This document shows, piece after piece, positions 1,951-59,058 of a stretch of 64,000 nt of DNA; within the stretch, counting starts at the first letter, position 1, and every line of letters starts with the position of its first letter. A program made the translations under genes and the position numbers. Under the pieces are notes generated by a model. That model was not told where the DNA came from, searched no databases, and saw nothing but the letters and a program-made list of their open reading frames with translations. The stretch is from Rhizophagus irregularis (Eukaryota). The stretch lies in contig NC_089430.1 of NCBI RefSeq assembly GCF_026210795.1, positions 5,022,001-5,086,000 of the forward strand, given 5' to 3'.

Positions 1951-4900
1951 ATGCTGATTAATTCATATGATTGTGATTGTGATTATGAATGTAATGCAAA
2001 ACGGTTTAAACGAAATTTTAAAAATTGGACTAGTGGTAATAATAATATTGATAAATTTATTCAAGATACCCAGCTATTAGAGCATAATTATTATAAGTTA
2101 CATAATGCTTTAGAATGGATACCTTATGATAAACTTTATGATATCAAATATATTACAGAAGATAATAAATTTGGTAAAGTGTATAGAGCAAATTGGATTG
2201 ATGGATATATAGATATATGGGATCATGAAAATCAAAATTGGGGAAGAGAAGATCAAAATATATTTGTAATTCTGAAAATTATAGATAATCCATCAAGCAT
2301 TACATTAGAATTTATAAATAAGGTATAATAAATTTTCATTTTATGAATTATAATATAAATTAATTACATTGTACTGTGCATTTTGTGAAAAAAAAGCCAA
2401 TTGTTTAAAAACTAGTTAAAATTTTATTTTTACTAATATTTCTAACTTTAATATATTATAGATTGCAGTGCCTCATAAAGTTTTTGGAATAACTCAAGAT
2501 CCAGAAACCAAGAACTATATGGTGGTTTCGAATATCAATAAATGTGGAATATGCTATGCTACATGTAATTCAATGTGTTTTCAACGAAATTTTGAAAATT
2601 GGACTAGTGGTAATAATGATATTGATAAATTTATTCAAGATATCCAGCTATTAGATCATGATAATGCAAATGAAGCATTAGAATGGATATCTTATGATAG
2701 ACTTTATAATGTTAATTATATTGCAGAAGATAATAAGTTTGGTAAAGTGTATAGAGCAAATTGGATTGATGGATATATATATACTAGTAGTCGGAATAAT
2801 TATGTTCAAAATTGGATAAGAAAAGATCAAAATATGTTTGTAATTCTGAAAATTTTAAATAATCCAGCAAGTATTACATTAAAACTTATAAATAAGGTAT
2901 AATTAATTATTAAAAGTTTCATTTTTTCGTGAATTAATGCAATTGTACTGTGATATTTTGTGAAAAAAAATCGCCAGTTGATTTAAAAACAAATAATGAA
3001 AATTTTACTTTTGCTGATATTTCTACTTTAATATATTGTAGATTGCAGTATCTTCTAAAGTTTATGGAATAACTCAAAATCCAGAAACCAAGAACTATAT
3101 GGTAGTTTTAAAAGATACATGTGAAAAATGTAATAAAGTGTGTAATTCAATACATTTTCAACGAAATTTTAAAAATTGGACTAGTGGTAATGATGATATT
3201 AATAAATTTATTCAAGATACTCAGCTGTCAGTTCATAATTATTATGAGGTAAAAAATGCATTAGAATGGATACCTTATAATAGATTGTATGATATTAAAT
3301 ATATTACAGAAGATAATAAGGTTGGTAAAGTGTATAGAGCAAATTGGACTGATGGGCGTATAGGTAGTGATAATTATAGGATTGAGATTTGGAATGATAA
3401 CCAAAATTGGATAAGAAAAGATCAAAATATGTTTGTAATTCTGAAAATTTTAAATAATCCAGCAAGTATTACATTAAAACTTATAAATAAGGTATAGTAA
3501 ATTTATTAAAAGTTTCATTTTTTTGTGAATTTTAATATAAATTAATCGTACCATTTATGAAAAAAAATTGCCAAATGCTTAAAAAGCAAATAGTTGAAAT
3601 TTTAATTTTTACTAATATTTCTAACTTTAAATACATTATAGATTGCAGTATTTTCTAAAGTTTATGGAATAACTCAAAATTCAGAAACCAAGAACTATAT
3701 GGTAGTTTTGGAAAATATATGTGAAAAATGTAATAAAGTGTGTATTGCAATTCATTTTCAAAATAGATTCATACATTGGACTAGTGGTAATAATGATATT
3801 GATGAATTTATTCAAGATACTCAGCTGTCAGTTCATAATTATTATGAGGTAGAAAATGCATTAGAATGGATACCTTATGATAGACTTTATGATGTTAAAT
3901 ATATTGCAGAAGATGATGAGTTTGGCAAAGTGTACAGAGCAAATTGGACTGATGGACATATAGGTGGTGGAAATTGGAAAAGAAAAGATCAAAATATGTT
4001 TGTAATTCTGAAAATTTTAAATAATCCAGCAAGTATTACATTAAAACTTATAAATAAGGTATAATAAATTTATTAAAGTTTCATTTTTTTAGTGAATTGT
4101 AATATAAATTAATTGTATCATTTGTGAAAAAAAAAAAAATTGCCAGATGTTTAAAAAACAAATAGTTGAAATTTTTATTTTTACTAATATTTCTAATTTT
4201 AAATACATTATAGATTGCAGTATCTTTTAAAGTTTATGGAATAACTCAAAATCCAGAAACCAAGAACTATATGGTTGTTTTGGAAAATATATGTGAAAAA
4301 TGTAATAAAGTGTGTAATGCAATTTATCTTCAAAATAGATTTATACATTGGACTAGTGGTAATGATGATATTGATAAATTTATTCAAGATACTCAGCTGT
4401 CAGCTCATGATGATGCAGATGAAGCATTAGAATGGATACCATATAATAGATTGCATAGTATTAAATATATTACAAAAGATAATAAGTACAGAGCAAATTG
4501 GATTGATGGTAAATATATATTTGTAATTCTGAAAATTTTATATAATCCAGCAAGTATTACATTAAAATTTATAAATAAGGTATAATGAATTTATTATAAG
4601 TTTCATTTTTTTGTGAATTAATGTAATTGTACTGTGCTATTTTGTGAAAAAAAATTGCCAGTTGATTTAAAAACAAATAGATATATATTTTACTTTTGCT
4701 GATATTTCTACTTTAATATATTGTAGTATAAAGTTTATGGAATAACTCAAGATCCAGAAACCAAGAAATATATGGTAGTTTTGAATGATATATGTGAAAA
4801 ATGTGATGAAGTGTGTAATTCAATACATTTTCAACAAGATTTTAAATATTGGACTAGTGGTAATGTTGATATTGATAAATTTATTCAAGATATTCAGCTG

Positions 4901-7877
4901 TCAGTTCATAATTATTATGAGGTAAAAAATGCATTAGAATGGATACCTTATCATAGACTTCATGATGTTAAATATATTGCAGAAGATGATAAGTTTGGCA
5001 AGGTGTACAGAGCAAATTGGATTGATGGATGTATATATGTTCGGAAGAATTATGTTCATTGGGAAAGAAAAGATCAAAATATGCTTGTATTTCTGAGAAT
5101 TTTAAATAATCCAGCAAGTATTACATTAAAACTTATAAATAAGGTATAATAAATTTATTAAAAGTTTAAAGTTTCGAATTGTAAATATAAATTAATCACA
5201 TTATACTGCGCTATCTGATGAAATAAATTGCCAGTTGTTTAAATAGCAAAAAGTTGAAATTTTATTTCTACTAATATCCCTAACTCTAATATATTGTAGA
5301 TTGCAGTATCAATTGCAGTATCCTATAAAATTTATGGAATAACTCAAAATCCAGAAACCAAGAACTATATGGTAGTTTTAATAGATATATGCGAAAAATG
5401 TAATAAAGTGTGTGATTCAATACATTTTCAACGAAATTTTATAAATTGGACTAGTGGTAATGATAATATTGATAAATTTATTCAAGATACTCAGCTGTCA
5501 GTTCATAATTATTATGAGGTAAAAAATGCATTAGAATGGATACCTTATGATAGATTTTATGATGTTAAGTATATTGCAGAAGATGATGAGTTTGGCAAAA
5601 TGTACAGAGCAAATTGGATTGATGGACTCCTAAATGAATGGAATAATGAAAATCAAAATTGGATAAGAAAAGATCAAAATATGCTTGTAATTTTGAGAAT
5701 TTTAAATGATCCAGCAAGTATTACATTAAAACTTATAAATAAGGTATAATAAATTTATTAAAAGTTTCGAATTGTAATATAAATTAATCACATTATACTG
5801 TGCTATCTGATGAAAAAATTGCCAGTTGTTTAAATAGCAAAAAGTTGAAATTTTATTTCTACTAATATCCCTAACTCTAATATATTGTAGATTGCAGTAT
5901 CAATTGCAGTATCCTATGAAGTTTATGGAATAACTCAAGATCCAGAAACCAAGAACTATATGGTAGTTTTTGTAAAAAAATGTGAAAAATGTAATAAAGT
6001 GTGTAATTCAATCTATTTTCAACGAAATTTTAAAAATTGGACCAGTGGTAATAATGATATTGATAAATTCATTCAAGATACTCAGTTATCAGCTCATAGT
6101 GATATAGGAGAAGCACTAGAATGGATACCTTATGATAGATTTCGTGATATTAAATGTATTGCAAAAGGTGGGTTTGGAAAAGTATATAAAGCAAAATGGT
6201 TTGATGGTAATATATATGAATGGAATGATTATAAACAAAATTGGAAAAGGAATCAAAACATGGTTGTAGCTCTAAAAAGTTTAAATAATTCAAGAAATGT
6301 TACATTGGAATTTATGAATGAGGTAAGCTATTTAACTATTCTTAGTAAATATTTAATTTAAGTATTAATACTTCAGTTATTTATAATATTTATAGATTAC
6401 ACTACATCATAAAGTAAATTTGCATAAATGCCCTATCATGATTAAACTTTATGGAATAACTCAAGACCCAGAAACGGAAAATTATATTATGATTTTAGAT
6501 TATGCAGAAAATGGAAGTTTACGAAATTATTTAAACACAAATTATGGTGAATTGAGTTGGACTGATAAAATTAATTATTTGCATAGCATTGCACATGGAC
6601 TTAATGATATTCATGAAATAGAATTAATTCATAGAGACTTGCATACTGGTAATATATTAAGGCTCAAAAATCTCACTTGTATAACTGATATGGGATTATG
6701 TAAACCTGCTGATTGTAATACATCGGAAAATGCAAAAAGCAAAATATATGGTATTTTACCTTATATTGCGCCTGAAATTTTACGTGGACGAAATTATACC
6801 AAAGCTGCAGATATTTATAGTTTTGGTATAATAATGTATGAAGTAATTTCTGGATTACTTCCATATTATGATGTAGGTCATGATGTAAATTTAGCAGCGA
6901 ATATTTGTAAAGGACTTCGACCAAGGTTTAATATTAAAGTACCCCAATTGATTGTGCATTTAATTAAAAGATGCTTGGATGCAAATCAATCAAATCGACC
7001 AAATGCAGCAGAAATTAAAAAAACTTTAAATCAATGGCTTAGTGAATCACAAGGTTTGATAGTATATGATATTAGTAGTAGTAATAATTATACAAGTATG
7101 CGAAAGCAAATTATGGAAGTAGATGAAATAAACAAAAGTTCATCAAATAGCAGTATAACTTCGACAAATTTAGGAACATCTTATGTAACACATTCAGAAG
7201 CTGTTTATACCAGTAGATTACTTGATTTTAGTAATCTTCCTGAGCCAAAAAATTCTGATGATTATTATGAAGAAAACGGTAATATAATTAGCATGAAATT
7301 TTCAGGTATTTATTAGTAGAAAAAGATTTTATATTAATTGTAAAAAATACTGATAAGGTTTAATTTTTTAATAGAATCCTTACAAATTGATATTTCTCAA
7401 TTGAAAATTAGTAATTCTTTTGAACTAAAAAATTCTGATGATAATTATGAAAAGAATGATAATATTAAAATGAAACCTTCAGGTATACTTTCTAAAAAAA
7501 ATTAATAAAATCAATTATAAATTATTAATAAATTTTTAATTCATTAAATAGAATCCTTACAAATTGATATTTTACAGTCTCCTGAACCAGATAATTCTGA
7601 TGATTCTTACGAAAAAAATGATAATATTATTAGTATGAATTCTTCAGCAGGTATTGATTAATAAAAAATATTTAGATTGTTACTTAAAAAAAACACTAAT
7701 TTTTTTCCATTAAATAGAATCACTACAAATTGATATTTATCAATTGAACACTAGTAAAGATGGTAACTATTCTTTAGATATGTATAAAAAAAACTAGTCT
7801 ATTGTATAATATACTTATTTTATTTGTTTATTTTTTTAGACCAGGATAGAAAATCAAAAGGCAAAGAAAAAATTTAG
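1951..7877 (+). CDS. TKL-group protein kinase with 7 degenerate tandem Cys-cluster/N-lobe modules followed by a complete kinase domain (13 exons)
   Basis: Phase-0 exons 1951-2322, 2462-2896, 3042-3491, 3642-4058, 4214-4579, 4727-5143, 5300-5743 and 5891-6322, all multiples of 3 with GT-AG ends. Kinase exon 6396-7305 has HRDLHTGN, DMG, APE and DIYSFG. The eighth module supplies KGGFGKV, VALK and alphaC E. Tail exons 7375-7482, 7552-7650, 7718-7762 and 7840-7877 (TAG). Confidence 0.9.
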
Positions 7878-26547: not shown

Positions 26548-29500
26548 TTAAATGTTTAGTCGAGAAATACCAATTTGCTGAGAAATATTAATTTGCTGAA
26601 AAATATCAATTTGCTGAGATAATGATGCTAATTAATAAATAAAGTTTCCATTAATAATTTTACAACTAATTTAAATACTCTTTAATAACCATTACCTGAA
26701 GATTCCATGCTAATTATATCATCGTTTTGATTATCATAATAATCGACAGAATTTTTTGGTTCAGGAAGATTATTAAAATTAAGCAATCTACTGGTATAAA
26801 TATCTTCTGAATGTGTTTTATGCGATAATCCTAAGTTGGTTGAAGGTGCACTACTGACCGCCAAATTCTTATTGATATTTTCTGCTTCTCTAGTTTGTTT
26901 TTGTATTTCTGTATAATTATCAGTTACATAATGATTTTTAAACATAGTAAATAATTCTTCAGACCATTGACTTAAGATTTTTTTGATTTCTTCTGCTTTT
27001 GGTCGACTTAACGGATTTGAATCTAAGCATCTTTTAATTAAACGGACAATTAATTGTGGTACTTTGATATTAAACCTTGGTCTAAGTCCTTTACAAATTC
27101 TTATTGCTAAATTATGATCATGATTTACATCATGATATGGAGGTAATTCAGAAATTACTTCATACATTATAATACCAAAACTATAAATATCTGAGGCTTT
27201 GGTATAATTTTGTCCTCGTAAAATTTCAGGAGCCATATAAGCCAAAACACCATATGTACTATTTTTTGTGTTTTCTGATGCATCATAGTCTGCAGGTTTA
27301 CATAATCCCATATCAGTTATACAAGTGAGATCTTTGAACCTTAGTATATTGCCAATATGTAAATCTCGATGAATTAATTCATTTTTATGAATACCTGCAA
27401 GCCCTCGTGCAATGCTATGTAAATAATTAATTTTATCATTAAGATATAATTTGGTATGATTTTTATTTAAATAATTTCGTAAATCTCCATCTTCTGCAAA
27501 ATCTAAAACCATAGCATAATTTTTTGTTTCTGGATCTTGAGTTATTCCATAAAGTTTAACAATACACCTACCCAAATTTACTTTACAATGTGATATAATC
27601 TAAAATAAAATGCATATATATTAGCAAAATTAAAATATCTACAAATTTTCAAATAATAAAATTTGTTACCTCATTCATAAACTCCAATGTAACATTTTTT
27701 GAATTATTCAAACTTTTTAAAGCCACCAACATATTTTGATTCTTTCTTCTCCAATTTTGATTTTCATCATCCCATTTATCTATACATCCATCAATCCAAT
27801 TAGCCTTATAAACTTTGCCAAATCCACCTTTTGCAATATATTTAATATCATAAAATCTATCATAAGGTACCCATTCCAATGCATGGCATGTATAATAACT
27901 ATGATTTGATAGCTGGATATCTTGAATAAATCCATCAATATCGCTATTACCACTTGTCCAATTATTGAAATTATGTTGAAAATATATTGCATTACACACT
28001 TTTTTACATTTTTCACATAAATCTCTTTGAACAAGCATATAATTTTGCGTTTCTGGATCTTGGGTTATTCCATAAATTTTAACAAATCCTATACTCTGCA
28101 ACTGAAATAAATAACATTGAATATATTAGTAATAATTAAATTTTATAAATTATACTAAATGAAAATAACTTTAGTACCTTATTCATTATAAATTTTGATT
28201 CAATAGATTTTGGATTAGTACTTAAATTATTTAAACTTACAAACATATTTTGGTGTTTTCTTTCCCAATTTTGACTTTCCTTATTCCATCGGTTTATATA
28301 TCCATCAATCCAACTTGCTCTATATACTTTATTACTATTTTTTGTAATACATTTATTAATATTATAAAATTTATTATAAGGTATCCATTCTAATACTTCT
28401 GATAATTGATAGGCTTTATGTAATGATAGTTGAGAATCTTGTATAAATACATCAATAATGTTATTGCCACTAGACCAATTTCCAAAATTTTGTTGAAAAC
28501 GTATTGCATTACATACATCATTACATATTTTACATGTTAAAACTACCATGTATTTTTCTGTTTCTGGATCTTGGGTTATTCCATAAACATTATAGGAACC
28601 TATAGTCTACAAATGAAATGGATGTACTAAATATAATAACAAAAATCAAAATATTTTATTAAATAATAGTACTAATTATACCTTATTTAATTTACTAACT
28701 TTTGAAATGTCTGAACTTTTCAAAATCATAGATATATTTTGGTCTTTTCTTTTCCAATTTTGATTTGTATAGTTCCCATAAACATTATATATAGAAACCT
28801 ATAATCTACAAATAAAATAGATGTATTGAATATAATAGCAAAAATCAAAATATTTGATAAATAATATTAATTATACCTTATTTAATTCACTAATTTTTGA
28901 AATATTTAAATTTTTCAAAATAATAGATATATTTTGGTCTTCTCTTATCCAATTTTGATTTACATAGTCCCATTTGTTTATATATCCATCAATCCAATTT
29001 GCTTTATATACTTTATTACTTTTTTTTGCAATACATTCAATATCATAAAATTTGTTATAAGGTATCCATTCTAATGCTCTTGATAATTGATGGGTTTTAT
29101 ATGATGATAGCTGAGAATCTTGAATAAATCCATCAATAATATTATTACTGCTAGTCCAATTTCCAAAATTTAGTTGAAAGTATATTGCATTACATACATC
29201 ATTACATTTTTTACATGTTAAAACCACCATGTAATTTTCTGTTTCTGAATCTTGAGTTATTCCATAAACTTTATAGCAACCTATAGTCTACAAATGAAAT
29301 AGATATATTTGAATATACCAACAATAATCAAAATATTTGAATAATAATATTAATTATACCTTATTTGTAAGTGTTAACTCACTAACTTTTGAAATATTTA
29401 AACTTTTCAAAATTACAACCATATTTTGATGTTTTCTTTTCCAATTTTGATTTTCATCATCCCATTCATTTACATATCCATCAATCCAACTTGTTTTATA

Positions 29501-30690
29501 TATTTTATCTTTTACAATACATTTAATATCATAAAATCTATCATGAGGGATCCATTCTAATGCATGGTATACGTAATAATTATGATCTAGTAATAGTTGA
29601 GTATCTTGAATAAATTTATCAACATAATTATTACCACTTGTCCAATTTTTGAAATTTCGTTGAAAATGTATTGCATTACATATATAATCACATTCTTCAC
29701 ATATATCTTTCTGAACCCTTATATAATTTTTTGTTTCTGGATTTTGAGTTATCCCTATTGTTAACTATAAGTATAATAAATTAATAAGAGGTATACTGTT
29801 TAAAAAATGATAAAATAACTTGCCTTGTTTACAAATTCTGATATATTATATTTTGGATCACTTAAATCTTTTAAAATTACAGACATATTTTGATCACTTC
29901 TTTGCCAATTTTGATTTTCTTTATTCCAATTATTTATGCATCCATCAATCCAATTTGCTCTATATACTTTATTATTATTTTTTACGATACATTCAATATC
30001 ATAAAATTTGTTATAAGGTATCCATTCTAATGCTTTTGATAATTGATAATTTTTATGTGATAATAGTTGAGAATTTTGAATAAATTCATCAATAATATTA
30101 TTACCACTAGTCCAATTTCCAAAATTTAGTTGAAAGTATATTGCATTACATATACTATTACATTGTTTACATGTTAAAACCACCATGTATTTTTCTGTTT
30201 CTGGATCTTGGGTTATTCCATAAACTTTATAGCAACCTATAGTCTACAAATAAAATTGATATGTTTGAATATATTAACAAAAATTAAAAATCTTATTAAA
30301 TAATATTAATTATACCTTATTTGTAAGTGTTAATTCACTAATATTTGAAATATTTAAACTTTTTATAATTACAACCATATTTTGATGTTTTCTTTCCCAA
30401 TTTTGATCTTTATCATCCCATTTATTTATGCATCCATCAATCCAATTTGCTTTATATACTTTGTCTTTTTCAATGCACTTAATATTATTAAATTTATCAT
30501 AAGGTATCCATTCTAACACTTTTTCCGCATCATCATTATGTTGAGTATTTTGGATAAATTTATCAATATCATTATTACCACTAGTCCAGTTTTTAAATTT
30601 TTGCTTAAACCGTTTTTCAAAACAAATTTTATTACATTTCATACATATCTCATCTGACTTGTTGAAGGCACCAATAATTTGAAAATCCAT
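26548..30690 (-). CDS. TKL-group protein kinase with 5 full and 1 collapsed degenerate N-lobe modules followed by a complete kinase
   Basis: Module exons at about 30690-30316, 30244-29824 (GC donor), 29764-29360, 29287-28877, 28798-28682 (39 aa) and 28606-28178. The intact N-lobe exon 28101-27670 has KGGFGKV/VALK. Kinase exon about 27599-26695 has HRDLHIGN, DMG and APE. The tail exon with QQIDI repeats ends in TAA at 26550-26548. Confidence 0.85.
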
Positions 30691-37751: not shown

Positions 37752-40413
37752 TTAATTGTTTTGGATAATTATTCCTTTAGATTTATTACTTTGATCTAAA
37801 AAAAAAGTAGAAGAAAAAGAAAATAGAAATTTAGATATATAAATATGAATAAAAAAGAAAATTATAAATATAAACTTAAAATTTACAATCTTCATTAATA
37901 TTCAATTGAAAAACATCAATTTGTAAAGATAAAGATGCTGTTTAATAGATAAAATTTTATTAGCCTTTTTATAATTAATTTATATTTTTCTTTTATCAAA
38001 CAATACCTGTAGATTCCATTTTAATCATATTATCATTTTGTTTATCATCATATTCGTCAGAATTTTTTTCTCCGGAAAATATATTATCAGTAATTTTCAA
38101 TTGAGAAATATCAATTTGTAAAGATTCTATTTAGAGTAAATTAAAACTTATTAATACTTTAATTAATTTGAATATTTTTTCGTAAAAAAAAGTATCGAAA
38201 ATTTATACCACTATTATTATTCTTTTCATAATAATCATCAGAAATTTTTTGTTCAGGAATATTATTATCTTCATTTTTCAATTTATGGAAATCAATCTGT
38301 AAGGATTCTATTTAATAATTTAACAAGTTATTAATAATTAATTTTATGTTGATTTAATACATTAAAATTAGTTGATACCTGAAGCTTTCATGCTTATTAT
38401 ATTATCATTTTGTTCATAATAATCGACAGAATTTTTTGGTTCAGGAAGATTACTATAACTAAGCAATCTACTAGTATAAATGGCACCTGAATGTGTTTCA
38501 TATGATAATCCCAGACTAGTTGAAGTTATAATACTAGTTGATAAACTATTATTAAATTCATCTGCTTCTTTAATTTGTTTGTATAATTCTGTATGAAAAT
38601 CCTGATGCGTTATAATTCTATGCCATTTGTACAAAATACTATCAATTTCTTTTGGTGTTGGACGATTTAATGGGTTTGCATCTAAACATCTTTTAATTAA
38701 ATGCACAATTAATTGTGGTACTTTAGTATTGAATCTTGGTCTAAGTCCTTGACAAATTTTCATTGCTAAACTTATGTCATGGTCTACATCATAATATGGG
38801 GCAATCCGGACATTAATTCATATATAATTATACCAAAACTATAAATATCTGCAGCTTTGGTATAATCTTTGTTTTGCAAAATTTCAGGAGCGATATAAGG
38901 TAAAACACCATATATACCATTTTTTGTATTTTCAGAATTTACAGGTTTACATAATCCCATGTCAGCAATCTTGGCGTAATTAGATACTAATAAATTACCA
39001 GGATGTAAATCTCGATGAATTAATTCATTTTTATGAATATGTTCAAGTCCAGATGCAAGGTATTTTAAATAACTGAACTTATAATTCCAACTTAATTCTT
39101 TGTAATTTTCATCTAAATAATTTCGTAAACTTCCATATTGTGCATAATCCAAGACCATCACATAATTTTTTGTTTCTGGTTCTTGAGTTATACCATAAAA
39201 TTTAATAATTTTATCACTGTCGACTATTTTATAATGCAACATAGCCTATGTAATAATAAAGTTAAAAAAATAAAAAATTAATTTTAATAAAACTTAAAAA
39301 AGTTTTCATTAGACAATGAATAAAATTATACCTCATTTATAAATTTACTATTAATATCTTTTGAATTATTTAAACTTTTCAGAGCCACAAATTTAAGTTG
39401 ACCATTCCTTTCCCAAATTCTATTATATATATCCCATTTGACAATATATCCATCAATCCATTTTGCTCTATATACTTTGCCAAATCCACCTTTTGCAATA
39501 TATTTAATATCACAAAATCTATCATAAGGTATCCATTCTAATGTTTTTGATATGTAAGAATGATCTGATAGCTGACTATCTTGAATAAATTTATCAATAT
39601 CATTATTACCACTGGTCCAACTATTAAAATATTGCTGAAAAATGATTGCCTTACATATTCTACATCTATTATCCATAACGGCCATATAGGTTTTTGTTTC
39701 CGGATCTTGAGTTATTCCATAATTTGCATGTAATGTTGTAATCTAAAAATATTAAATGTTGGTAAAATTTAAAATTTCATAATTCATTGAAAAATAATTT
39801 TATTGAGCTTTTTCAAGTTACTTGATACGTGATTATGATTATTGATTATTTATTATTATTACTAAAATGGAAATGATCTGCGAATGTGGCTAATCATATT
39901 TCTATATATCTCGTATTTATTAAATAATCAATAATCACAATAATCATCACACATCAGGTGATTCATAGGGGTAGCACAATTTTTGAAAAGCGCGATAATA
40001 TATCGTACCTGAGTCCTAAAATCTGATTCGATATTATTCGGATCATCAAAGGTTTTTAGAATTACAAGTAAATTTTGATTAATTCTTTTCCAATTATTTT
40101 TCTCATTATCCCAATAAATTATATTTCCATCAATCCAATTTGCTTTATACATTTTACCAAACCTACTTTCAACACTTTTAATATTATAAAGTCTATCATA
40201 AGGTATCCATTCTACTGCAGCTTTTGATACACCATAATGGTAATGGCCAAAGATATGTGTTGATAGCTGAGTACCTTGAATAAATTTATCAATATTATTA
40301 TTACCACTAGTCCAATTTTTGAAATTTTGTTGAAAATATTTTGCATTACATTTATGGTGACATTTTTCACATATATCATTCAAATTCATATTATGATAAT
40401 TCCAAGGTATCAT
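37752..40413 (-). pseudogene. TKL-group kinase with one degenerate N-lobe module and a 1-nt frameshift in the kinase C-lobe
   Basis: Exons about 40413-40009, 39742-39332 (KGGFGKV, VALK) and 39245-38378 (HRDLHPGN, DMG, APE). SGLP-PYYD is broken at about 38800, where a C run has 4 C and 5 are needed. ESLQID tail exons run to TAA at 37754-37752. The break could be a sequencing error. Confidence 0.8.
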
Positions 40414-40826
40414 TATTTTCTCAAAATAAAAACTTTAATAATAACGATTTTAAAGTTTGGTAACAAAAAATATTGAACTATGAATACGATAAATATATTT
40501 TTATATTACGAATTTAAATCAAGTTTGTAAAATAGAAGGGTTTAATTTCATATATTTTTATTTTCACATTTATATTTAATTACTTTAAATATTAAGTATT
40601 TTACTTGTACGACTCTACTAAATTTCGTACTTTCGTACGAATGATATTAATTAATATTGTAATAAATACAATGGCGAAGTACTGTTTTGTACGACCTGAA
40701 TAAATTATGTGGCTTTCGGCTAAAATTGAAACGATCCTTTTCCGTTATTTATACTTCATGATCGGCAAAATATGAAACAATTAATTAACCTTTTTGCTGA
40801 TTAACTTCAAATATCAATTTTTTTTT

Positions 40827-41720: not shown

Positions 41721-43210
41721 TACGAAATAAAAGTGTTGAACAATAAATTCGGAAGTATAAATTTTTTTAAAAAAGAAAAGTTAATATTTCATAATTATTT
41801 TGCTACTAAATTTCGTACATGTACTACTTTTAAAGCGTATGAAACTACAAATGATATTAATAATATGGTATTTACATCAAATTAATTGATGATTTAAATT
41901 AAAATAAGTCACCTATAAATCTAATTGATCATCGACTCTGAAATTTAACTTTCTAATTAAACAAGGTGATAAAGTATTTTATATTTGAATTTACATTAAA
42001 AATATTTAGTGCTCACCTAAAAGATGAACACACTATGTATACCATCAATAATCTAAAAATTTGTACATGAAAGGAAAATAAAAGTAGAAAATGCCTAGCA
42101 CATGATACTATTATTTATGTATAGCACATGTCCTTTTTCATACATATTTAGACATCTTTGTCAATGAACCCACCTTAAACCCACCTTACATAAAAAACAA
42201 ATCTGAAAAAATAAATAGTAAAAACGAAATAAAACTATAATAATTATCCTAAAATAAAATATAAACTAACAAACATTAAGTAAACAAAACAAAATTGAAG
42301 ACTTAGAAAGTAAACCCTTCATTATTATATATCAAATTCCAATTTCATATTAACAATGACAACAGAAAAATTTCAAAATACAATCATATGTTTTTTTGAA
42401 GTTTCATTTTACTTTGATCAAATCCAAAAACATCTTTTTGATAAAATTGAAAGATTACTATATTTTAAAATATCATTTCCACCTTCTAAACATACATAAT
42501 CGCTTAATCATATGATTATTTGCTTTATTATAGTAATTAGGCAAAATCAATTTATTATAACTTACAACTTAATAAATAAATATAAATTTATCAATATATT
42601 TATACTTTAAAACTCACTAACTGTATCTAAATTGCCCTAGTTGGTTTTAACAAAAAAAAAGTGACATTTAAAATTATTCGAAGTATATATTACGTATTAA
42701 GAAATTTTTCTTCATGATTTTGCTGTGGCAACAATGAGGCTTGATGATTGACATACATTTCAGACATATGTGCAAAATTTGTTTGTTATACATACAATGC
42801 TTGTACTATGATCACTTTTGTACACAATGCATTTTGCATAAATAAAGGCGTTTAATAAAAAAAAGAAAAAAAAAGTTATTTACATTATCTTTTCCAATCA
42901 GAAAGAATTTCAATATAATTATATAGTAATGGCTCTTATTAGTAATGATAAAGGTAATAATCATATATAATATAAACTAATATTTTTAAACAAATTTACT
43001 ATATAATAAAACTAGTTTCTGGTAATATTGAATTTGAAGGAAACGGTTCTAAGGAATTCAAAGAAAGTGGCTTTGAAGAATTTGAAAAAAGTAGTACCAA
43101 GGAATCTAAAGGTATATTATACATACTAAATATTAAATTTTTATTTGTAATACATTTAAATACTATTTATAATTATACCTTACTATATAATATACAAAAT
43201 ACAAATATAG

Positions 43211-45577
43211 CTTGTAAGTTAATAGGTTATCTTATAATTGAATAATAATGGAATTACTTATCATTTTTATTATATTTCTAGTGATTAATAATACTATAGC
43301 CAGTAAGTTATTAGTTATTTAAATTTTTAATTCTTTATTTATTTTACATAATATTTAAATAATTAAATTGAGCAAATTCTTTATTTAATTAACCATTTAA
43401 TACTAATTAATTGTATTACAGATGGTAAGTTACAATATCATATTTATTTGTTTAATATTCAACTAATTATATTCTTAATTTAATAATTTAAATAACTAGA
43501 TTGTAAGCAACATATTTAATTTGCAGTAAATACTTTATATTATATTTATATTTAACTAATAATTAATTAATAATATTAGGGTGTAAGTAGACCCTATATA
43601 GGGGTCAGGTGATGAAAAAAGTTTGCTGTACGCATTTTTTCAGGGCCGGAATTATGATAATGTCAGTCGGTTACTATAATAGGAAATAAAATTCTGACTG
43701 GCATTATCAAAAATTATCTAAAAAGGAAAGATTTTCATAATTTCAAAATACGCAAACTCAAACCTGACCCTTTTATATATATTTCTGGGTCCTGTGTAAG
43801 TTATTGATATCTATATTTCTATTATTTAAACTCACTAAATTCTTTATTTTGTAATTTTTCTTTTAGTTAGTAAGTTATAAGTTATTTATTTAATTCTATT
43901 ATTACTTATTGTTATAATATTTACATATAAACCAAACTAACTAAATTCTTTATTTAAAATATTATTTAATAATTAGGGAGTAAGTTATTTATTTAATTCT
44001 ATGTTTACTTATTGTTATAATATTTACATATAATTTAAATTAACTAAATTCTTTATTTTAAAAAATTATTTAATAATATAGGGAGTAAGTTATATATTTA
44101 ATTCTATTATTATCTAATATTTACGTATAATTTAAACTAACTTTAAAAAAATTATTTTGTAATTTCTTTCAGTTAGTAAGTTATGAGTTATTTATTTAAT
44201 TCTATTATTACTTATTGTTATAATATTTACATAATTTAAACTAAGTTCTTTACTTAAAAAATTATTTAATAATATAGAGTGTAAGTTATTATTTATTCAA
44301 TTCTATTATTACTTATTGTTATAAACTTATAATATTTACATATAGTTTAAAACTACTAACTAAATTCTTTATTTAAATAGATCGTAAGTTATAGGTTATT
44401 TATTTAATTCTATTATTACTTATTGTTATAATAACTAAATTCTTTATTTTTGTAATTTCTTTTAGTTAGTAAGTTATAAGTTATTTATTTAATCTATTAC
44501 TACTCTCTGTTATAATAACTAAATTCTTTATTTAAATTATTTTGTAATTTCTTTTAGTTGGTAAGTTATAAGTTATTTATTTATTTCTATTATTACTTAT
44601 TGGTATAATATTTACATATAATTTAAACTAAATAGGAAGTAAGTTATTTATTTAATTCTATTATTAATTATTGTTATAATATTTACATACAATTTAAACT
44701 AACTTCTTTATTTAAATAGATTGTAAGTCATAAATTATTTATTTGATTCTATTATTACTTATTGTTATAATATTTATATATAATTTAAACTAACTAAATT
44801 CTTTATTTAATAATATAGTGTGTAAGTTATTTATTTAATTCTATTGTTACTTATTGTTATAATATTTGCATATAATTTAACTAAATTATTTATTTAAAAA
44901 TTATTTAATAATATAGGGAGTAAGCATCTTATTATTACTTATTGTTAGTATAATATTAACATATAATTTAAACTAACTAAATTCATTATCTAAAAAATTA
45001 TTTAATAATATAGGGAGTAAGTTATTTATTTAATTCTAATATTGTTATATTATTTACATATAATCTAAACTAACTAAATTCTTTATTTAAAAAATTATTT
45101 AATAATATAGGGAGTGAGTTATTTATTTAATTCTATTATTATTTATTGTTATAATAACTAAATTCTTTATTTAAAAATTATTTTGTAATTTCTTTAGTTG
45201 GTAAGTTATAAGTTATTTATTTAATTCTATTATTACTTATTGTTATAATATTTACATATAATTTAAACTAACTAAATTACTTATTTAAATAGATCGTAAG
45301 TTATAATTTATTTATTTAATTCTATCATTAGTTACTTATTGTTATAATATTTAAACTAACTAAATTTTTATTTATAAAAATTATTTATTAATATAGCTTG
45401 TAAATTATTTGTTATTTCTATTGTTATATATTTTATAAATATTTATTTGTTAATTGAATTCTTTCATATAAAATTTCTGTTACTTTAGTTGGTAAGTTAT
45501 GAAAGATAGGTTGTTATTATATATATTTATACAAAACTAAGACATATATTATATTAAATTTCTATTTAAATTTTAGA
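43211..45577 (+). other. Array of 23 three-nucleotide micro-exons plus one 1-nt exon; the intron units form a roughly 95-bp degenerate tandem repeat
   Basis: AG|NNN|GT at 43211 CTT, 43300 CCA, 43422 ATG, 43500 ATT, 43580 GGT, 43867 TTA, 43977 GGA, 44082 GGA, 44173 TTA, 44278 AGT, 44381 ATC, 44466 TTA, 44558 TTG, 44636 GAA, 44720 ATT, 44819 TGT, 44917 GGA, 45014 GGA, 45111 GGA, 45198 TTG, 45293 ATC, 45397 CTT and 45489 TTG. AG|A|GT at 45577. Donors are mostly GTAAGT. Confidence 0.8.
43589..43793. mobile_element. MITE (205 bp) inserted just after the donor of micro-exon 5
   Basis: Ends AGACCC.../...GGGTCCT flanked by duplicated GTGTAAGT (43581-43588, 43794-43801). Core CAGGGCCGGAAT is shared with 53334-53530 and about 22790-22835. 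Confidence 0.75.
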
Positions 45578-45701
45578 GTAATTGTTGATTTTGATCTTAC
45601 ATTTCAGTGTAATTTTTAATATGAATTTCAATGATAAATTTAATTATTTAAATTTATATATAGATTTGGAAAAAGCGGAAATACAATTATGGATAATTTT
45701 A

Positions 45702-45980
45702 GGCCGTTCCAAATTAATAATTAGTTTAACGTCCTTTCTGGCCAAAAATTTTGAGGGGGGGGGAGGGGATAATTTAAACAAACATGAAAATTAAACATAA
45801 TAAAAATTTCGGAAATTTTTGGTAAAATCGGGAATTCTCGGTACTATTAAATTTTAGTAAAGGAGGGGGTGGTTTAAGCATATTTAAACATATCAAACAT
45901 ATATGTTTAAATCACCCTTGAATTTTTCAAAAATAGAGGGGGGGGGAGGACGTTAAACTAAAGATTAAATTGGAACGGCC
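45702..45980. mobile_element. PIF/Harbinger (Tourist-like) MITE, 279 bp, inside a kinase exon
   Basis: TIR GGCCGTTCCAAATTAAT / ATTAAATTGGAACGGCC. TTA TSD (45699-45701, 45981-45983). Excision restores ...MDNF-ILEKNLKWIPY. Confidence 0.92.
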
Positions 45981-48900
45981 TTATTTTGGAAAAAAATTTA
46001 AAATGGATTCCTTATGATAAATTTAAAAATGTTAAGTATCTTGATAAAGGAGGATTTGGTACTATATATAAAGCTATTTGGTTTTATAATGATAATAATG
46101 AAGTAATTCTTAAATGTCACAATAATTTAAGTAAAAATTTAAATGAATTTTTAAATGAAGTATGATAATATATTATTTATTTTTTTATTTTGAATTATAA
46201 TTTATTTATACTAATATATTATTATGTTTTATAGTGGGAATATCATAAAACTTGTTTAAATTCATATAATATTATTTATTTTTATGGATTTACAAAAAAT
46301 CCAGATACTTTGAAATATATGGTAGTAATGGATTATGCAAACAAAGGTAATTTAAGAGGAAACTTAACAAGAATTGTCAAAAGTGATTGGTATCAAAAAT
46401 TATATATGTTATTTGGAATTATTTCTGGGCTTAATTGTATACATAAACAAGATCTTATTCATTGTGATTTTCATGATGGAAATATTTTAAACCATAATGA
46501 AAGTAAAATTTATATTAGTGATTTAGGATTATGTAAACCTTTAAAATCATTTTTGAAAAAATATGATATTTATGGTGTTATACCATTTATGGCACCAGAA
46601 GTTTTAAGAGGCAATCCTTATACTACAGCTAGTGATATATATAGTTTTTCTATTATTATGTGGGAATTTACATCCGGGGTACCACCATTTAATAATAGAG
46701 CACATGATTTTCAACTTAGTTTAAGTATTTGTGAAGGTGAACGCCCTGAAATTATTGAAAATACTCCACAATGTTATGTAGATTTGATGAAAAAGTGTTG
46801 GGATGAAAACCCATTAAAAAGACCATCTTCTAAAGTATTATTGAAGAGTGGGTTTTTCTTTCAAATAAAGTGAAAGTTGAAGATATTAATGAAGAATTAA
46901 AATACAATATTATGGAATTTATAAATGCACCAATTGGGCAAAGCTATAATCTTACTACTGAATCTCATCCACAGGCATATTATAAAAGTCGCTTTCTTGA
47001 TTTTACTAGTAAACAATTAAATGAAATTCTTGAAAGTAGAGATTTACAAGCTTATTATTCAAGTCAAACTACTAGTGGAAAAGTGAATGAAATTCTTGAA
47101 AGTGAAGATTCACAAACTAGTGTAAAAGTGAATGAAATGAGTAAAAATTTGGATGATTGTATATTTAATTTGAAGTCATTAGGTATGTAATAGTATATAA
47201 AAAGAATTAATTTTGCAAATTATTTATGTGAAATTAATTTTATTTATTTAATTATTTAGATATTAAAACAGATAAAAAATAACTAGTAATTATTTGTGTT
47301 TTTATAAGAATTTATAGTTTTTTACTTAACAAAATTGTTATATTTATTTAAACACTAAGGCTAGAGTATCAGTAAAATATTTTACAATATTCTTAGTTTG
47401 TAATTTAAATAATTCCTTTTTTTATATTTAATTCATATATGTATTCTCTTTTTTTAGAATTATTTAAACACCAAAGCTAGAATAGTAAATATTTTACAAA
47501 TTTCTTAGTTTGTAATTTAAATAAATCTTTTTTTTTAACTTTCCAATTATTAAATATAAATTATCAAAATAATAATATAAGTATATAAACCCATTTCCAA
47601 TGTATAAAATCAAAATAAATAATGTAAAATTTTTTATATTAATTACAATGGCTGATTGTATTTTATTTATATTGTTAACTTTTATTCTTAATAATATTAT
47701 TTGCAATCTGCAAAAATATTCTTTACCTTTTTAAAAAATTATTTTATTAAGACAACATTATACATAACTATACATAAGTATTTTAACTTTATATTAAGTA
47801 CTGGCTAATAGTCAAATTGTAAAGTATTTTTTAGAACTTTTTTGTTTACAGTATCTGTAAATTATTTTTACGAATTTATTATGAGTTTTTTTTACAGATC
47901 ATATTAACATTTCCTAATAAAGATGCATATGGAAAATATCCAACATGTCTAAGTGACAAAAAAGCAATTGATTTTACATTTGCCTATTCAATTCAGAAGG
48001 TTATCTTTGTCTCATAATCTAATTTTAAATAAATTTTCTTAATAATCTTAACACCTTCTAATCAATTTAATATGTAAAAGATATTTGCACAAAATATGGT
48101 TTTTTAATTATGCTATAAAAAATTTTTATTACTAGTTGATCATAATATTCATATATACAAGTTGTTTGGAATAATATCTATAAAAGTAATCAAAGCAATA
48201 AATATTAAAGAACACCTAATAAAATTTACATCCCGATTTCAGCGTATAATGTTGATATTCCAATGAAAATCATAATTGAATAAAATAAATGAAGAATAAA
48301 GTATATATTATTATTCATGGAAAAACTTCATTATGTTGTATATGGGGCGAATTTATCCTTTACAGTTAATTTTATTGATCTTTAGATGCAGATTAGCTTA
48401 GTGCTGTAGTATATTGGTAATGACAAATATAGTAATTTATATCATAATCTCAACTTTGCTTGAAATTTCTACTTTTTTGATAGGTGGTTGAGTTATATGC
48501 CTATTTCTTTTAAATTTATTAGCACGCGAAAAGAGGGATTGAAGATTTACATTTGATTGGGATTTGGGATGAATTATTAGGAAAATCATCCAATAAATCA
48601 AACATTATGTAGTTATATTTGACTTCATAAAGACCCCCAAAAAATTATTTAATTTGATTTCGTAATTGCAAAAATATCTGTTAAGCATTTTGTTAATTAA
48701 AATCAGCAGAAAATTATGTAATTCTTCTCTTCCATTATCCTGAAAGAAAAGAAGAGAGAGAAAAAGAATTATTGATTTTTCCATTGCAAAAAAAAATTCA
48801 TTGGTTTTCAATCACATAGCTTTAGGATTTGAGGCGGATTCAGAAAATCAAATTAAAATGGGTTTTTTGTCATACAAGCAACGCAGGAATTTCATTTAAT

Positions 48901-54442: not shown

Positions 54443-57400
54443 TTAAGATTTTGAGTCATGGTCTTCAATATTAATTTGTATAGATCCTATGTAATAGAAT
54501 AAATTTGTTAGTAATTTTTTATATGTTTTGAATGTCTTTTATAAGTGACAAATTAATTATACCTGAGTATTCTGAATAATCATCGCTTGTTATACTATCA
54601 CTATTTTTCAATTGAGAAATATCAATTTGTAAGGATTCTATTCATAGAGTTAAATTTTATTAATACATTCTTTTCAAAATTAACTTAAATAATTACTTAT
54701 TTTCTATATTTTCTATTAAACAATACCTGTAAATTCCATGCTAACTATATCATCATTTTGTTCGTAATAGTCATCTGAATTTTTTGGTTCGGGAAGATTA
54801 CTATTACAATTAAGCAATCCACTTGTATAGATAGCTTCTGAACGTGTATTACATGATAATCCTAAACTGGTTGACTTAATTGATAAATTTTTATTTGTTC
54901 CTTCTGATTCTTCAATTTGTTTTTGTAATTCTGTAATTTGATAATCACTTCGTTTATCATGCCATTCACGTATAATTTTATAGATTTCATTTGCTGTTGG
55001 TCGATTTAATGGATTTGCATCCAAACATCTTTTAATTAAATGCACAATCAATTGAGGAACTTTAATGTTAAACCTTGGCCTAAGTCCTTTACAAATCCTT
55101 ATTGCTAAATTATTGTGGTTCATGTCATGATATGGAGGTAATCCAGAAATTACTTCATACATAATTATACCAAAACTGTAAATATCAGCAGCTTTGGTAC
55201 AATTTTGTCCTCGTAATATTTCAGGAGCCATATAAGGTAAAATACCATATGCACTCTCTTTTGAATTCTCTGATGCATTGTAATCTGCAGATTTACATAA
55301 TCCCATATCGGTTATATAAATACGTGTATTGTTATCATAAAGAATGTTGCCAACATGCAAGTCTCGGTGAATTAAATTATTTTTATGAAGAAGATTAAGT
55401 GCGTATGCGATAATCCATAAACAATTAAGCCTATCATACCAATTTAATTTATCATGACTTGTGTTTAAAAAATCTCGTAAACTTCCATTTTCTACATAAT
55501 TCAATACCATCATATAATTTTTTGTTATCGGATCTTGAGTTATTCCATAAAATTTAATAACAGCATGTAGAAGATCATTCACTTTATAATGCCAAGTGAT
55601 CTATAATTAAATAAATATAAATGAAATGCATTGAATTTGTAAAATTTTTTTAAATATAAATTAATCATACCTCGTTCATAAATTCTAATGTAACATTTTT
55701 TGAATTATCTAAACTTTTCAAAGCTACAAATTTATTTTGATCTTGTCTACTCCATTTACATTTTTCATAATCCCAATGCTGCATATATCCATCATACCAA
55801 TTTGCTCTATAAATTTTGCCAAAACCTCCTTTTGCAATATATTTAATATTATAAAATCTATTATAAGGTATCCATTCTAATGCTTTTGATACTTCATAGT
55901 CAGAATGTATTGATAACTGAATATTTTGAATAAATTTATCAATATCATCATTACTACTAGTCCAATTTACAAAGTTTTGATGAAAATGCATTGCAAGGCA
56001 TGTACAGTTGCATTTTTTACATATACTACTTAAAACTAACATATAATTCTTGGTTTCTGGATCTTGGGTTATCCCATAAACTCTATCATGTATCGTAATC
56101 TACAAATGCAATAATTCACTAAATATTGATATTTTCCAATAATATGGTAATAATAATTTACCTTACCTTATTCTTAAATTCTGATGTGATATCATTTGGA
56201 TTGTCTAAAGTTTTCAGGCTTACAAACATATTTTGACCTCCCCTTTTCCAATTATCATCCCAACTTACTATATATCCATCGATCCAATTGGCTTGATATA
56301 TTTTGCTATTCTCATCCTCTGCAAGATATTCAACATTACAAAGCTTATCATAATGTATCCATTCTAATACCTTTGATAATTGGTCAGAATGTGCAGATAG
56401 CTGAGTGTGTTGTATATGAATATTAATATTATCATTACCACTAGTCCAATTTTCAAAATTTCGTTGAAAATGCATTGCAAAACATATACAATTACATTTT
56501 TCACATATTTCATTACAAACAAACATATAATTCTTGGTTTCTGGATCTTGAGTTATTCCATAGAATGTTTGGTATATCATTACCTTACAATGATAAATTG
56601 TTAAAATATATTTTTCAAAAATATTATTATATAACAAATTAACATACCTTATTCGCAAATTCTGATGCAATATTATTTGGATTATTTAACATTTTCAGAA
56701 TTATAAACATGTTTTCACCTTTTCTTCCTATTTTGTGATCTTCACTATCCCAATAACTTATATATCCATCAATCCAATTAGCTAGATATACTTTGCCAAA
56801 CTCATCATCTGTAAAATATTTAATACCACAAAATCTATCATAAGGTATCCATTCTAATGCTTTTGATACTTTATAGTCAGAATGTATTGATAGCTGAGTA
56901 TCTTGAATAAATTTATCAATATTATTATTACCACTAGTCCAACTTTCAAAATTATGATGAAAATGTGTTGCAAGGCATGAACTGTTGCATTTTTCACATA
57001 TTTCATTACAAACTACCATATAAATTTTTGCTTCTGGATCTTGAGTTATTCCATAAACCTTATGATTAATTGCAATCTATAAATAAAATGCATTAATGAA
57101 ACTGATATTTTAAATTTTTTATCAATTAAATAAACTTAATATACCTCATTTATAGTAAATTCTGGTGTAATATCATTTAGATTATCTAAATTTTTCAGAA
57201 CCACAAACATATTTTGTCCTTTTCTTTCCCAATTATTAAAATCCCAATGCAATATATATCCATCAATCCAATTTGCTCCATACATATTTCCAAAATTGCT
57301 ACTTGCAATATATTTAATATCATTAAGTCTATCATATGGTATCCATTCTAATGCCTTGTAATCATAACAATTTGATAGCTGAGTATCTTGTATAAATTTA

Positions 57401-58450
57401 TCAATATGATTATTACCACTAGTCCAATTTTCAAAATTATGCCGAAAATGTATGGTGTTACATACATGACTACATTTTTTACATGCTAAAACTACCATGT
57501 AATTTTTTGTTTCCAGATCTAGAGTTATTCCATAAAATTTATGATGCATCGTAATCTACAATATATATAAATGTTAAAAATTAAATTTTTTTTATAGTTT
57601 CATTGATAATAAGTTACATTACCTTATCCACAAATTCTGATGTAATAGCATCTGGATTATTTAAACTTTTCAGAATTACAAACATGTTATTATTATATCT
57701 TTTACAATTGCTATTATCCCAATATGATATATATCCATCAGTCCAATTGGCTAGATACACTTTGCCAAGCTCATCTTCCATAAAATATTTAATATCATAA
57801 AATCTATCATAAGGTATCCATTCTAGTGCCTTCTTTACGATATAAACAGTATGATCTGATAACTGAGTATTTTGAATAAATTTGTCAATATTATTATTAC
57901 CACTAGTCCAATTTTCAAAATTTCGTTGAAAATGTATTGCAAAACATATACTGTTGCATTTACTACATTTTTCATTACAAACAACCATATAATTCTTTGT
58001 TTCTGGATCTTGAGTTATTCCATAAACTTTATGGAGTACTGTAATCTACAAATATAATTAACAAAATAAATACATTAATAAAATCTAATTATTACAAATT
58101 TAGTAAGTTTATTTCACCTCTTTTAATTCTAGTGCAATATTATTTGGGCTATTTAACCTTTTTAGAATCACGAACATATTTTGATCTTTTCTTCTCCAAC
58201 TCAAATTTTTATCATCCCATTTATCGATAGGTCCTTCATTCCAATTCGTTCTACTGAACTTGTCTTTTATAATATAAAATCTATCATAAGGTATCCATTC
58301 TAATGCTTTTGATACTTCATAGTCAGAATGTATTGATAGCTGAGTATCTTGAATAAATTTATCAATATCATTATTACCACTAGTCCAATTTTTAAAATTT
58401 TGTTGAAAATATTTTGCGTTACACACACATTTACATTTGTTGCATTCCAT
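54443..58450 (-). CDS. TKL-group protein kinase with 5 degenerate N-lobe modules followed by a complete kinase
   Basis: Module ORFs/exons at 58109-58450, 57614-57988, 57136-57549, 56639-57019 and 56158-56670. Intact N-lobe at 55665-56042 (KGGFGKI, VALK, EFMNE). Kinase 54716-55582 has HRDLHVGN, DMG and APE. Tail exons ESLQIDISQL and GSIQINIEDHDSKS end in TAA at 54445-54443. Confidence 0.87.
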
Positions 58451-59058
58451 ATTTAATTCTTTATTGGTATCAATAGTACGTAATGAATTATTTGACAGTC
58501 AAGGCTTGTTTAAATTATAATGAATTCAAGTTAGTAGAAAACGAAATTTAAAAAAAAAATTTACAAAGAACTTGCCACATAAGTTATAAGTGTAATTTTG
58601 CGATTACATCATAATTTCGTCATATTTTGCTGATATTCCTGTATAAGTTAACATCAATCATGAATCGGTGTCGATCGACATTTATTTAAAAATCAAGTTT
58701 ATAGTGTTGGTATTTTATTATATGATATTTCAAAATGCTAAAATAATATGATTTTATATGAAAAAATATTTGTTACATTACATAATTGTATCAAAAATTC
58801 TTTTTTTTTTATGGAATTATTGAAGTTTATATAATTAAGTAATCTTAAATTTTTTAAATTTTCCAAATGACTATTATCTAATTCATATTTTGGGTCACTA
58901 AGTTTTTTGATTACACTAAAATTACATTTATTTGAGTATTTATTAATACCTTATAGAAAATTTCTTAAATATACACGGGTGATTCGAAAACATATCACGT
59001 GACCTTATAACAAAATTAATAAATATTGTAACTGATCAGCGTAAAAAATACCTATTTT

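What the first reader, a model, noticed from the sequence alone, without database searches (positions are those of the whole stretch)
45492..45700. A single-nucleotide exon is required to close the reading frame
Seen: after the last triplet (TTG, 45489-45491) an 85-nt intron ends TTTTAG, then a single A (45577), then GTAATT, an 86-nt intron and the acceptor ATATAG at 45663. The array leaves one spare G, and the kinase exon starts A-TTT-GGA-AAA-AGC-GGA-AAT. G + A + A = GAA puts FGKSGN..MDNFILE..LKWIPYDK in frame, matching the WTSGN..IDKFIQ..LEWIPY motif of the other kinases. Without the 1-nt exon the frame is off by one. This is a consistency check on the micro-exon model, although a frame match has a one-in-three chance. 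One-nucleotide exons are very rarely documented.
Basis: partly seen in the sequence, partly recalled or inferred. Interest (0 to 1): 0.85.

Follow-up and report, generated by a model that had tools for sequence, protein, structure and literature searches.

The report
One-base exon closes fungal kinase frame
In a kinase gene family of mycorrhizal fungi, a one-base exon sits at the end of a long row of three-base exons and is spliced into the RNA of sister copies, where it likely keeps the kinase in frame; this window's own copy is broken, and the public protein models retrieved lack the junction.

Summary
Confirmed. At 45577 a single A lies between TTTTAG and GTAATT, with introns of 85 and 86 nt. 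It ends an array of 23 three-base exons in a Rhizophagus-type kinase gene. Three lines go beyond the 1-in-3 frame match. (1) Conservation: AG-[A/T]-GTAA aligns in 8 of 8 sequences. Among 39 non-redundant array loci, all 11 whose kinase exon lacks two bases end in a 1-nt (9) or 4-nt (2) exon; all 28 others end in a 3-nt exon. These form only about three lineages. (2) The array avoids stops in phase 1 (1 seen, 8.6 expected). (3) RNA: 80 polyA reads carry TTG+A (majority consensus) before the kinase exon, and 11 run through intron 1 and the A straight into the kinase exon. All these reads come from paralogues or other alleles. The window's copy has a 279-bp insertion and a frameshift, so it is probably a pseudogene. 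One-base exons and codon-sized exon arrays are each known elsewhere; their combination across a kinase subfamily was not found in print.

The parts
42929..42953 (+). Predicted first coding exon (25 nt, ends in phase 1)
   Evidence: ATG and donor in the sequence; N-terminus resembles P0005; inferred, no read joint seen
43016..43111 (+). Exon 2 (96 nt, Glu/Ser/Gly-rich); its donor leaves one spare G (phase 1)
   Evidence: tblastn to P0005 aa 8-47, 65%; X24 depth about 66 in this bin
43211..45491 (+). Array of 23 three-base exons (YAG-NNN-GTRAR), read in phase 1; introns 75-119 nt except one with an insertion
   Evidence: 23 of the 28 plus-strand AG-N3-GT sites of the window lie here; phase-1 stop avoidance across loci
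43589..43793 (.). Insertion in one array intron, flanked by the 8-bp direct repeat GTGTAAGT (probable small transposon)
   Evidence: an empty-site contig joint 43580>43794 in X7
45492..45576 (+). Intron upstream of the 1-nt exon (85 nt, GTAAGT...TTTTAG, CTAA branch-like motif at -40)
   Evidence: retained in 11 X24 reads whose downstream intron is already gone
45577..45577 (+). Single-nucleotide exon A, middle base of a Glu codon (G+A+A)
   Evidence: conserved AG-[A/T]-GTAA in 8 of 8 aligned sequences; reads
45578..45663 (+). Intron downstream of the 1-nt exon (86 nt, GTAATT...ATATAG); paralogues have GTAAGT
   Evidence: joint 45577>45664 GT..AG in X24 (2 reads, 1 start) and one X18 contig; 45582 T>G in 15 X1 contigs
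45608..45608 (+). Second AG-T-GTAA site, a rival or alternative 1-nt exon; unsupported by RNA
   Evidence: present in window and L001; no RNA depth at 45584-45631 in three runs
45664..46159 (+). First kinase exon (A-TTT-GGA-AAA..., FGKSGN...LKWIPY), interrupted by the element below
   Evidence: GT..AG joint 46159>46235 in 55 X24 reads
45702..45980 (.). 279-bp inverted-repeat element with TTA duplication (MITE-like) that disrupts this copy
   Evidence: 35-nt arms, 91% complementary; stops if kept; 62 X24 reads join 45698>45981, so they lack it
46235..47190 (+). Main kinase exon (Pfam PF07714/PF00069) with a frameshift near 46835-46845
   Evidence: tblastn switches from frame 3 to frame 2

Best explanation
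A45577 is a spliceosomal one-base exon, conserved in a subfamily of Glomeromycota kinase genes and spliced into the RNA of paralogues, that likely serves as a phase adapter between a phase-1 array of three-base exons and a kinase exon that begins one base into the next phase. Shown: the splice signals, their conservation, inclusion of the base in reads of related copies, and the perfect match between terminal-exon length and acceptor phase. Inferred: the downstream intron is removed first, which fuses the single base onto the long kinase exon, so the upstream intron is then spliced as an ordinary intron and the spliceosome never has to bridge a one-base exon. Inferred: skipping the base or keeping the upstream intron gives a frameshift or stop before the kinase domain. 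The base is free to vary (A or T seen), as the middle letter of an ordinary codon. The window's own copy is probably a recently disabled pseudogene.
For: Alignment: AG-[A/T]-GTAA in 8 of 8, GTAAGT in 7 of 8. 11 of 11 loci whose kinase exon starts with 1 spare base end in a 1-nt (9) or 4-nt (2) exon; 28 of 28 that start with 2 spare bases end in a 3-nt exon. Phase-1 stops: 1 in 161 junctions against means of 8.6 and 7.9, with 0 of 5000 shuffles as low; phase 2 shows no avoidance (29 against 26.9). RNA: X24 has 80 loose ends before 45664 with a consensus ending TTTTGA; X18 (3 contigs) and X19 (4 contigs) consensuses also end TTGA. One X19 contig translates to DPFE-FG like the window's model but with different third codon positions. 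11 X24 reads lie on intron 1 through 45577 and continue ATTTGGAAAAAG; 2 contigs each in X18 and X19 do likewise for another paralogue; a TAG-T form occurs in X18 and X19. X24 depth is 0 at 45584-45655, while X1 contigs do lie there, so the region is alignable. X1 contigs are identical to the window over 45480-45668.
Against: No read is from this copy (45676 C>T in 105 of 105 X24 reads). The 80-read consensus mixes paralogues (agreement 0.68) and gives no share for the last letter. 12 X24 reads end at 45661 with another upstream sequence; they could be a skipped form, a G exon or an unspliced paralogue intron. 37 loose-end rows were not shown. The 1-nt loci form one clade (support 0.87), the 4-nt loci a second, and the rest a third group, so Fisher p=6e-10 overstates independence. 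Two of seven 1-nt loci with a visible upstream triplet give a stop at the junction as parsed (L009, L019), and L002 has a stop just inside the kinase exon. The window's donor is weakened (GTAATT). Splicing order rests on 11-14 polyA reads that could be stable retention isoforms. No protein evidence.
Confidence: 0.88

Rival explanations
1. The frame is closed by the other one-base site, T at 45608 (CAG-T-GTAATT), instead of the A or as a mutually exclusive alternative to it.
For: It restores the frame; the site is also in L001 and, as TAG-T-GT, in most close X1 contigs (45605 C>T in 11 contigs, 45607 changed in 1).
Against: It is absent from L002, L004, L005, L009 and L010, and L003 has TT at a shifted place. 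It has no CTRA motif within 60 nt upstream. RNA consensus ends in A, and there is no RNA depth at 45584-45631 in X24, X18 or X19. It lies 30 nt from the A donor, well below the 62-119 nt introns of this gene.
Confidence: 0.05
2. The array is read one codon per exon (phase 0, a hydrophobic Leu/Gly/Ile stretch) and the junction is a 5-nt exon AGTAA that uses the second GT of GTAAGT, as several public models seem to assume (SKFGKS).
For: Many public models have SK or K before FGKS; P0084 and P0018 carry a G/I/L/E-rich stretch there; phase-0 stops are also rare (2 TGA exons in 191).
Against: Reads end TTGA, not TTGAGTAA; stop avoidance marks phase 1; 28 loci join triplets directly to a phase-1 acceptor; exon 2 ends in phase 1; the window's donor GTAATT has no second GT.
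Confidence: 0.03
3. The base is spliced in but does not matter for protein, because the kinase is translated from an internal start (ATG at 45688, where many public models begin) and the array lies in a 5' leader.
For: Many retrieved models start at MDNF or MDDF; no protein evidence for the long form; 0 of 159 further proteins show the spliced junction.
Against: That Met is Ile, Val or Leu in many paralogues. Stop avoidance and the length-phase rule only make sense if the array is translated into the kinase. Synonymous differences keep DPFE in an RNA contig.
Confidence: 0.04

Closest known systems
One-nucleotide exon of Fusarium CYP621A P450 genes (PMC12940212; part 1 of 3 read)
   Same: Fungal spliceosomal 1-nt exon that supplies the middle base of a codon and joins a phase-1 donor to a phase-2 acceptor; found through a frame gap and confirmed by reads.
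   Different: There the base is an invariant G in a conserved motif, between ordinary exons, in 20-24 orthologues. Here the base varies (A or T), follows a 3-nt exon and a long array, and is spread over a paralogous kinase subfamily with a 4-nt counterpart.
Plant 1-nt exons of APC11 and VPS55 (PMC4674806 part 1 of 3; PMC8831610 passages)
   Same: AG-N-GTRAGT context; loss shifts the frame; the base can be exchanged without blocking splicing (APC11); upstream-intron retention isoforms occur (VPS55); missed by annotation.
   Different: Isolated exons in low-copy conserved genes, with no neighbouring array.
Coprinopsis cinerea microexons (PMC12230235 passages)
   Same: 13 one-base exons in 13 genes show that fungi splice them.
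   Different: No array of consecutive 3-nt exons is described in the passages seen.
Codon-sized mini-exons of the Tuber melanosporum nank (NACHT-ANK) family (Iotti et al. 2012, not read; cited in PMC4986451 and PMC9815663, passages)
   Same: Dozens of 3-bp exons in an expanded gene family of a mycorrhizal fungus.
   Different: Ascomycete NLR genes, tied in the citing text to a C-terminal recognition domain, with alternative splicing reported. Here a Glomeromycota kinase N-terminus in phase 1, closed by a 1-nt exon; alternative splicing of the array was not tested.
Schistosoma micro-exon genes, MEG (PMC10526429 listing abstract and passages)
   Same: Runs of very short exons.
   Different: Secreted proteins with signal peptides, exons 3-81 bp and long introns; here a kinase with uniform 3-nt exons and introns near 90 nt.

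Membership tests
Spliceosomal single-nucleotide exon | One base flanked by a canonical AG and GT with introns of normal size | tested here: met
   TTTTAG-A-GTAATT, introns 85 and 86 nt
Spliceosomal single-nucleotide exon | Splice signals conserved in homologues | tested here: met
   8 of 8 aligned sequences; L019 has a weaker donor
Spliceosomal single-nucleotide exon | Base present in spliced RNA, with both flanking introns removed | tested here: met
   For paralogues: 80-read consensus ends TTG+A; joint 45577>45664 GT..AG
Spliceosomal single-nucleotide exon | Inclusion shown for this very copy | tested here: inconclusive
   All 105 X24 reads over 45676 differ from the window; the copy is disrupted
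Spliceosomal single-nucleotide exon | Changing the genomic base changes the cDNA base (mutagenesis) | not testable with these tools
   Natural A and T variants exist in DNA and RNA but were not paired gene by gene
Codon-sized mini-exon arrays (Tuber nank type) | Many consecutive 3-nt exons in an expanded gene family | tested here: met
   23 in the window, up to 29 in L051
Codon-sized mini-exon arrays (Tuber nank type) | Host gene is a NACHT-ankyrin NLR | tested here: not met
   Host is a PF07714/PF00069 kinase, so it is built like nank arrays but is not a member of that family
Codon-sized mini-exon arrays (Tuber nank type) | Alternative splicing diversifies the product | not tested
   Read tables give mixed-paralogue consensuses only; no per-gene isoforms
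Schistosoma MEG | Secreted protein with signal peptide, built mostly of micro-exons | tested here: not met
   Most coding length is two long kinase exons; no signal-peptide predictor was run, and the modelled N-terminus is acidic

The most novel reading that the evidence does not exclude
Arbuscular mycorrhizal fungi diversify an expanded kinase family by splicing: a 3'-to-5' zipper removes dozens of short introns one after another, starting at the kinase exon. Skipping 3-nt exons rewrites the phase-1 codons of a variable N-terminal recognition segment, and the terminal one-base exon is an on/off gate that decides whether a kinase is made at all.
Probability: 0.2. Interest if true: 0.85.

Novelty: new variant of a known kind. 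Interest (0 to 1): 0.62.

Why it matters
One-base exons were described as isolated curiosities. Here a whole paralogous subfamily carries one, directly after a 3-nt exon, with natural A/T and 4-nt variants and visible partly spliced RNAs. That makes the order of intron removal around the smallest possible exon testable from existing RNA data. It also means that the N-termini of these Rhizophagus kinases are probably mis-annotated: none of the 279 proteins retrieved shows a DPFEFG-type junction, and the 120 inspected have inconsistent N-termini.

Tried and rejected
No whole genome is held for the window. A DNA-motif scan of metagenome contigs for the kinase-exon start found 0 matches; the protein-based scan then gave 80 loci. 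The look-up of sequencing runs listed no RNA holder of the stretch (no RNA holder listed). The first lay over 42900-46300 did not display the 45664 loose ends, which were crowded out by the insertion; no joint from exon 2 to the kinase exon was among the rows shown. X7, guessed as RNA, behaved like DNA (deep intron cover, no spliced joint at 46159) and was not used as RNA evidence. Three protein searches found no model with the spliced junction. CAG 45605-45607 as an ordinary acceptor: 56 nt added, wrong phase. Retention of intron 2 with the A: 87 nt, wrong phase. Phase 2 for the array: 29 stops in 161 junctions. Earlier-findings look-ups by words and by relatives were blank. No fold was attempted for the array-encoded segment, so its structure is open.

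Full report
Setting. The window is AT-rich eukaryotic DNA full of intron-containing kinase genes. The kinase exon next to the finding has 161 relatives; of the 120 listed, 119 are named as Rhizophagus irregularis, R. clarus or R. diaphanus proteins and one is unnamed. The main exon is PF07714/PF00069. No whole genome is held.

Observation. Upstream lie 23 units YAG-NNN-GTRAR between 43211 and 45491, which is 23 of the 28 such plus-strand sites in 64 kb. Joining exon 1, exon 2, the triplets and the A gives an open frame ending ...DPF-E-FGKSGN; leaving out the A gives a stop 19 codons on. Two things the finding does not state: CAG-T-GTAATT at 45608 would also close the frame; and this copy is broken by a 279-bp inverted-repeat element with a TTA duplication at 45702-45980 and by a frameshift near 46835-46845. 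The motif alone is only modestly above chance window-wide (6 against 2.3) but rare where it matters (1.2% of shuffles of the gap; 1 in 222 control spacers).

Conservation. A scan of metagenome contigs gave 80 loci of related kinases, many with the same arrays. In the closest ones AG-[A/T]-GTAA aligns with 45575-45581 in 8 of 8 sequences; 7 of 8 have GTAAGT and the window has GTAATT. I scored acceptors blind to phase and entered 44 of 80 loci plus the window. Left out were 13 without an anchor, 1 without an acceptor, 4 with too little upstream DNA, and 18 without an array directly upstream or with a poorly scored or phase-0 best acceptor. Among these, L032 has an array and a phase-0 top score, though an AG of the expected phase lies at the homologous place; L065 and L076 have arrays before a longer exon. 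For L006 I set the acceptor by homology; both candidates have the same phase. Six near-duplicates were removed, leaving 39. All 11 loci whose kinase exon begins with one spare base end in an exon of 1 nt (9: seven A, two T) or 4 nt (2); all 28 that begin with two spare bases end in a 3-nt exon. A kinase-domain tree of 38 sequences (L019 and L070 dropped for length, L015 added) puts the 1-nt loci in one clade (0.87), the 4-nt pair in another (0.999), and both apart from the rest (0.976). The rule thus reflects about three lineages and one origin of the 1-nt exon, not 39 independent events. Against: L009 and L019 give a stop at the junction as parsed, and L002 has a stop inside the kinase exon, so several loci are decayed or misparsed.

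Phase. Over 161 junctions between triplets, phase 1 has 1 stop against shuffle means of 8.6 (pooled) and 7.9 (within locus), and 0 of 5000 shuffles were as low. Phase 2 has 29 against 26.9. Phase 0 is not tested by this shuffle (2 TGA exons).

RNA. No indexed RNA run holds this exact stretch. I laid a raw polyA run (X24, about 24% read) and contig runs. One search showed spliced paralogue reads (46159>46235, GT..AG, 55 reads) and reads lacking the insertion (62), and showed that X18 and X19 (one study) contain spliced contigs. One search, on 45480-45701, laid 117 X24 reads. 80 have loose ends before 45664 with a consensus ending TTTTGA (agreement 0.68 over 30 letters, paralogues mixed). 11 lie on intron 1 up to 45577 and continue with ATTTGGAAAAAG. 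The joint 45577>45664 (GT..AG) is in 2 reads of one start and in one X18 contig. X24 depth is zero over 45584-45655, where X1 contigs lie at depth 1400-7700. X18 (3 contigs) and X19 (4 contigs) consensuses also end TTGA. One X19 contig encodes DPFE-FG with other third positions than the window. One contig in each shows intron end TAG, then T, then the kinase exon. Six X24 reads at 45667 read, on my parse, as intron end, A, then a YGK-type exon. Unresolved: 12 X24 reads and 2 X19 contigs at 45661, and 37 rows not shown. Every X24 read over 45676 (105 of 105) differs from the window, so the evidence is for the subfamily and not for this copy. X1 contigs match the window exactly over 45480-45668; X1 may be the source strain and is not counted as independent.

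Mechanism. Shown: signals, conservation, inclusion in paralogue RNA, phase rule. Inferred: the partly spliced molecules all have intron 2 removed and intron 1 kept, and none of the opposite kind was seen among 117 reads. The downstream intron likely goes first and attaches the base to the long exon, after which intron 1 is an ordinary intron with a CTAA motif at -40. These molecules could instead be stable retention isoforms. Inferred: the exon is a phase adapter kept by selection for an open frame; its base is the middle letter of a variable codon. The role of the array-encoded N-terminal peptide was not determined; by analogy with Tuber nank genes, a variable recognition segment is the likeliest (inference, untested).

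Comparison. One-base exons are in print for Arabidopsis APC11 (PMC4674806, part 1 of 3 read), plant VPS55 (PMC8831610, passages), Fusarium CYP621A (PMC12940212, part 1 of 3) and 13 Coprinopsis genes (PMC12230235, passages). Arrays of 3-bp exons are in print for the Tuber melanosporum nank family (seen only as cited in PMC4986451 and PMC9815663; the original was not read). I reached this precedent through earlier AI notes. Searches pairing micro-exon terms with Rhizophagus, arbuscular mycorrhizal or Glomeromycotina and with 3-nt arrays in fungi listed nothing on these kinases. The library lacks most subscription journals, and I opened no supplements, which may bear on this claim. None of 279 retrieved proteins shows a DPFEFG-type junction.

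Verdict. A real one-base exon, well supported at subfamily level, in a copy that is itself probably dead. Each ingredient has a precedent; the combination, a variable one-base phase adapter closing a long phase-1 array of codon-sized exons across a kinase subfamily of mycorrhizal fungi, is a new variant. Interest 0.62.

Noticed in passing
L016:1250-2260; L026:1258: Inside arrays: L016 has a 1-nt (A) and a 2-nt (GG) unit with GTAAGT donors on either side of a GGA unit, together 3 nt, beside some decayed units; L026 has CAG-A-GTAAGT. These may be further internal 1- and 2-nt exons.
   Followed up: partly
L006:~200; L023:~275: A sister lineage closes the same phase gap with a 4-nt exon (CAAT, CAAA) instead of a 1-nt exon.
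   Followed up: yes
L051, L039, L024, L020: Arrays of 29, 18, 12 and 11 three-base exons before related kinases; their phase-1 peptides are rich in W, R, N, D, Y, K, I.
   Followed up: partly
window 43581-43801: A 205-bp insertion with an 8-bp direct repeat that duplicates the donor GTGTAAGT of one array unit; an empty site is seen in X7.
   Followed up: partly
window 45702-45980: MITE-like element with TTA duplication; X24 reads cover its ends deeply with unrelated flanks, so copies elsewhere are transcribed.
   Followed up: partly
P0084, P0018: Public models with a Gly/Ile/Leu/Glu-rich stretch before FGKS that looks like an array read one codon per exon, or like an intronless copy of the array.
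   Followed up: no
window 1915-7316, 26682-30690, 38368-40434, 54716-58498: Four other kinase genes with tandem exons repeating a Cys-rich WTSGN...LEWIPY module and no 3-nt array.
   Followed up: no
L008, L056, L059: The kinase exon itself begins AG-NNN-GTAAAT, which mimics an array unit and suggests how new micro-exons could split off an exon start.
   Followed up: no
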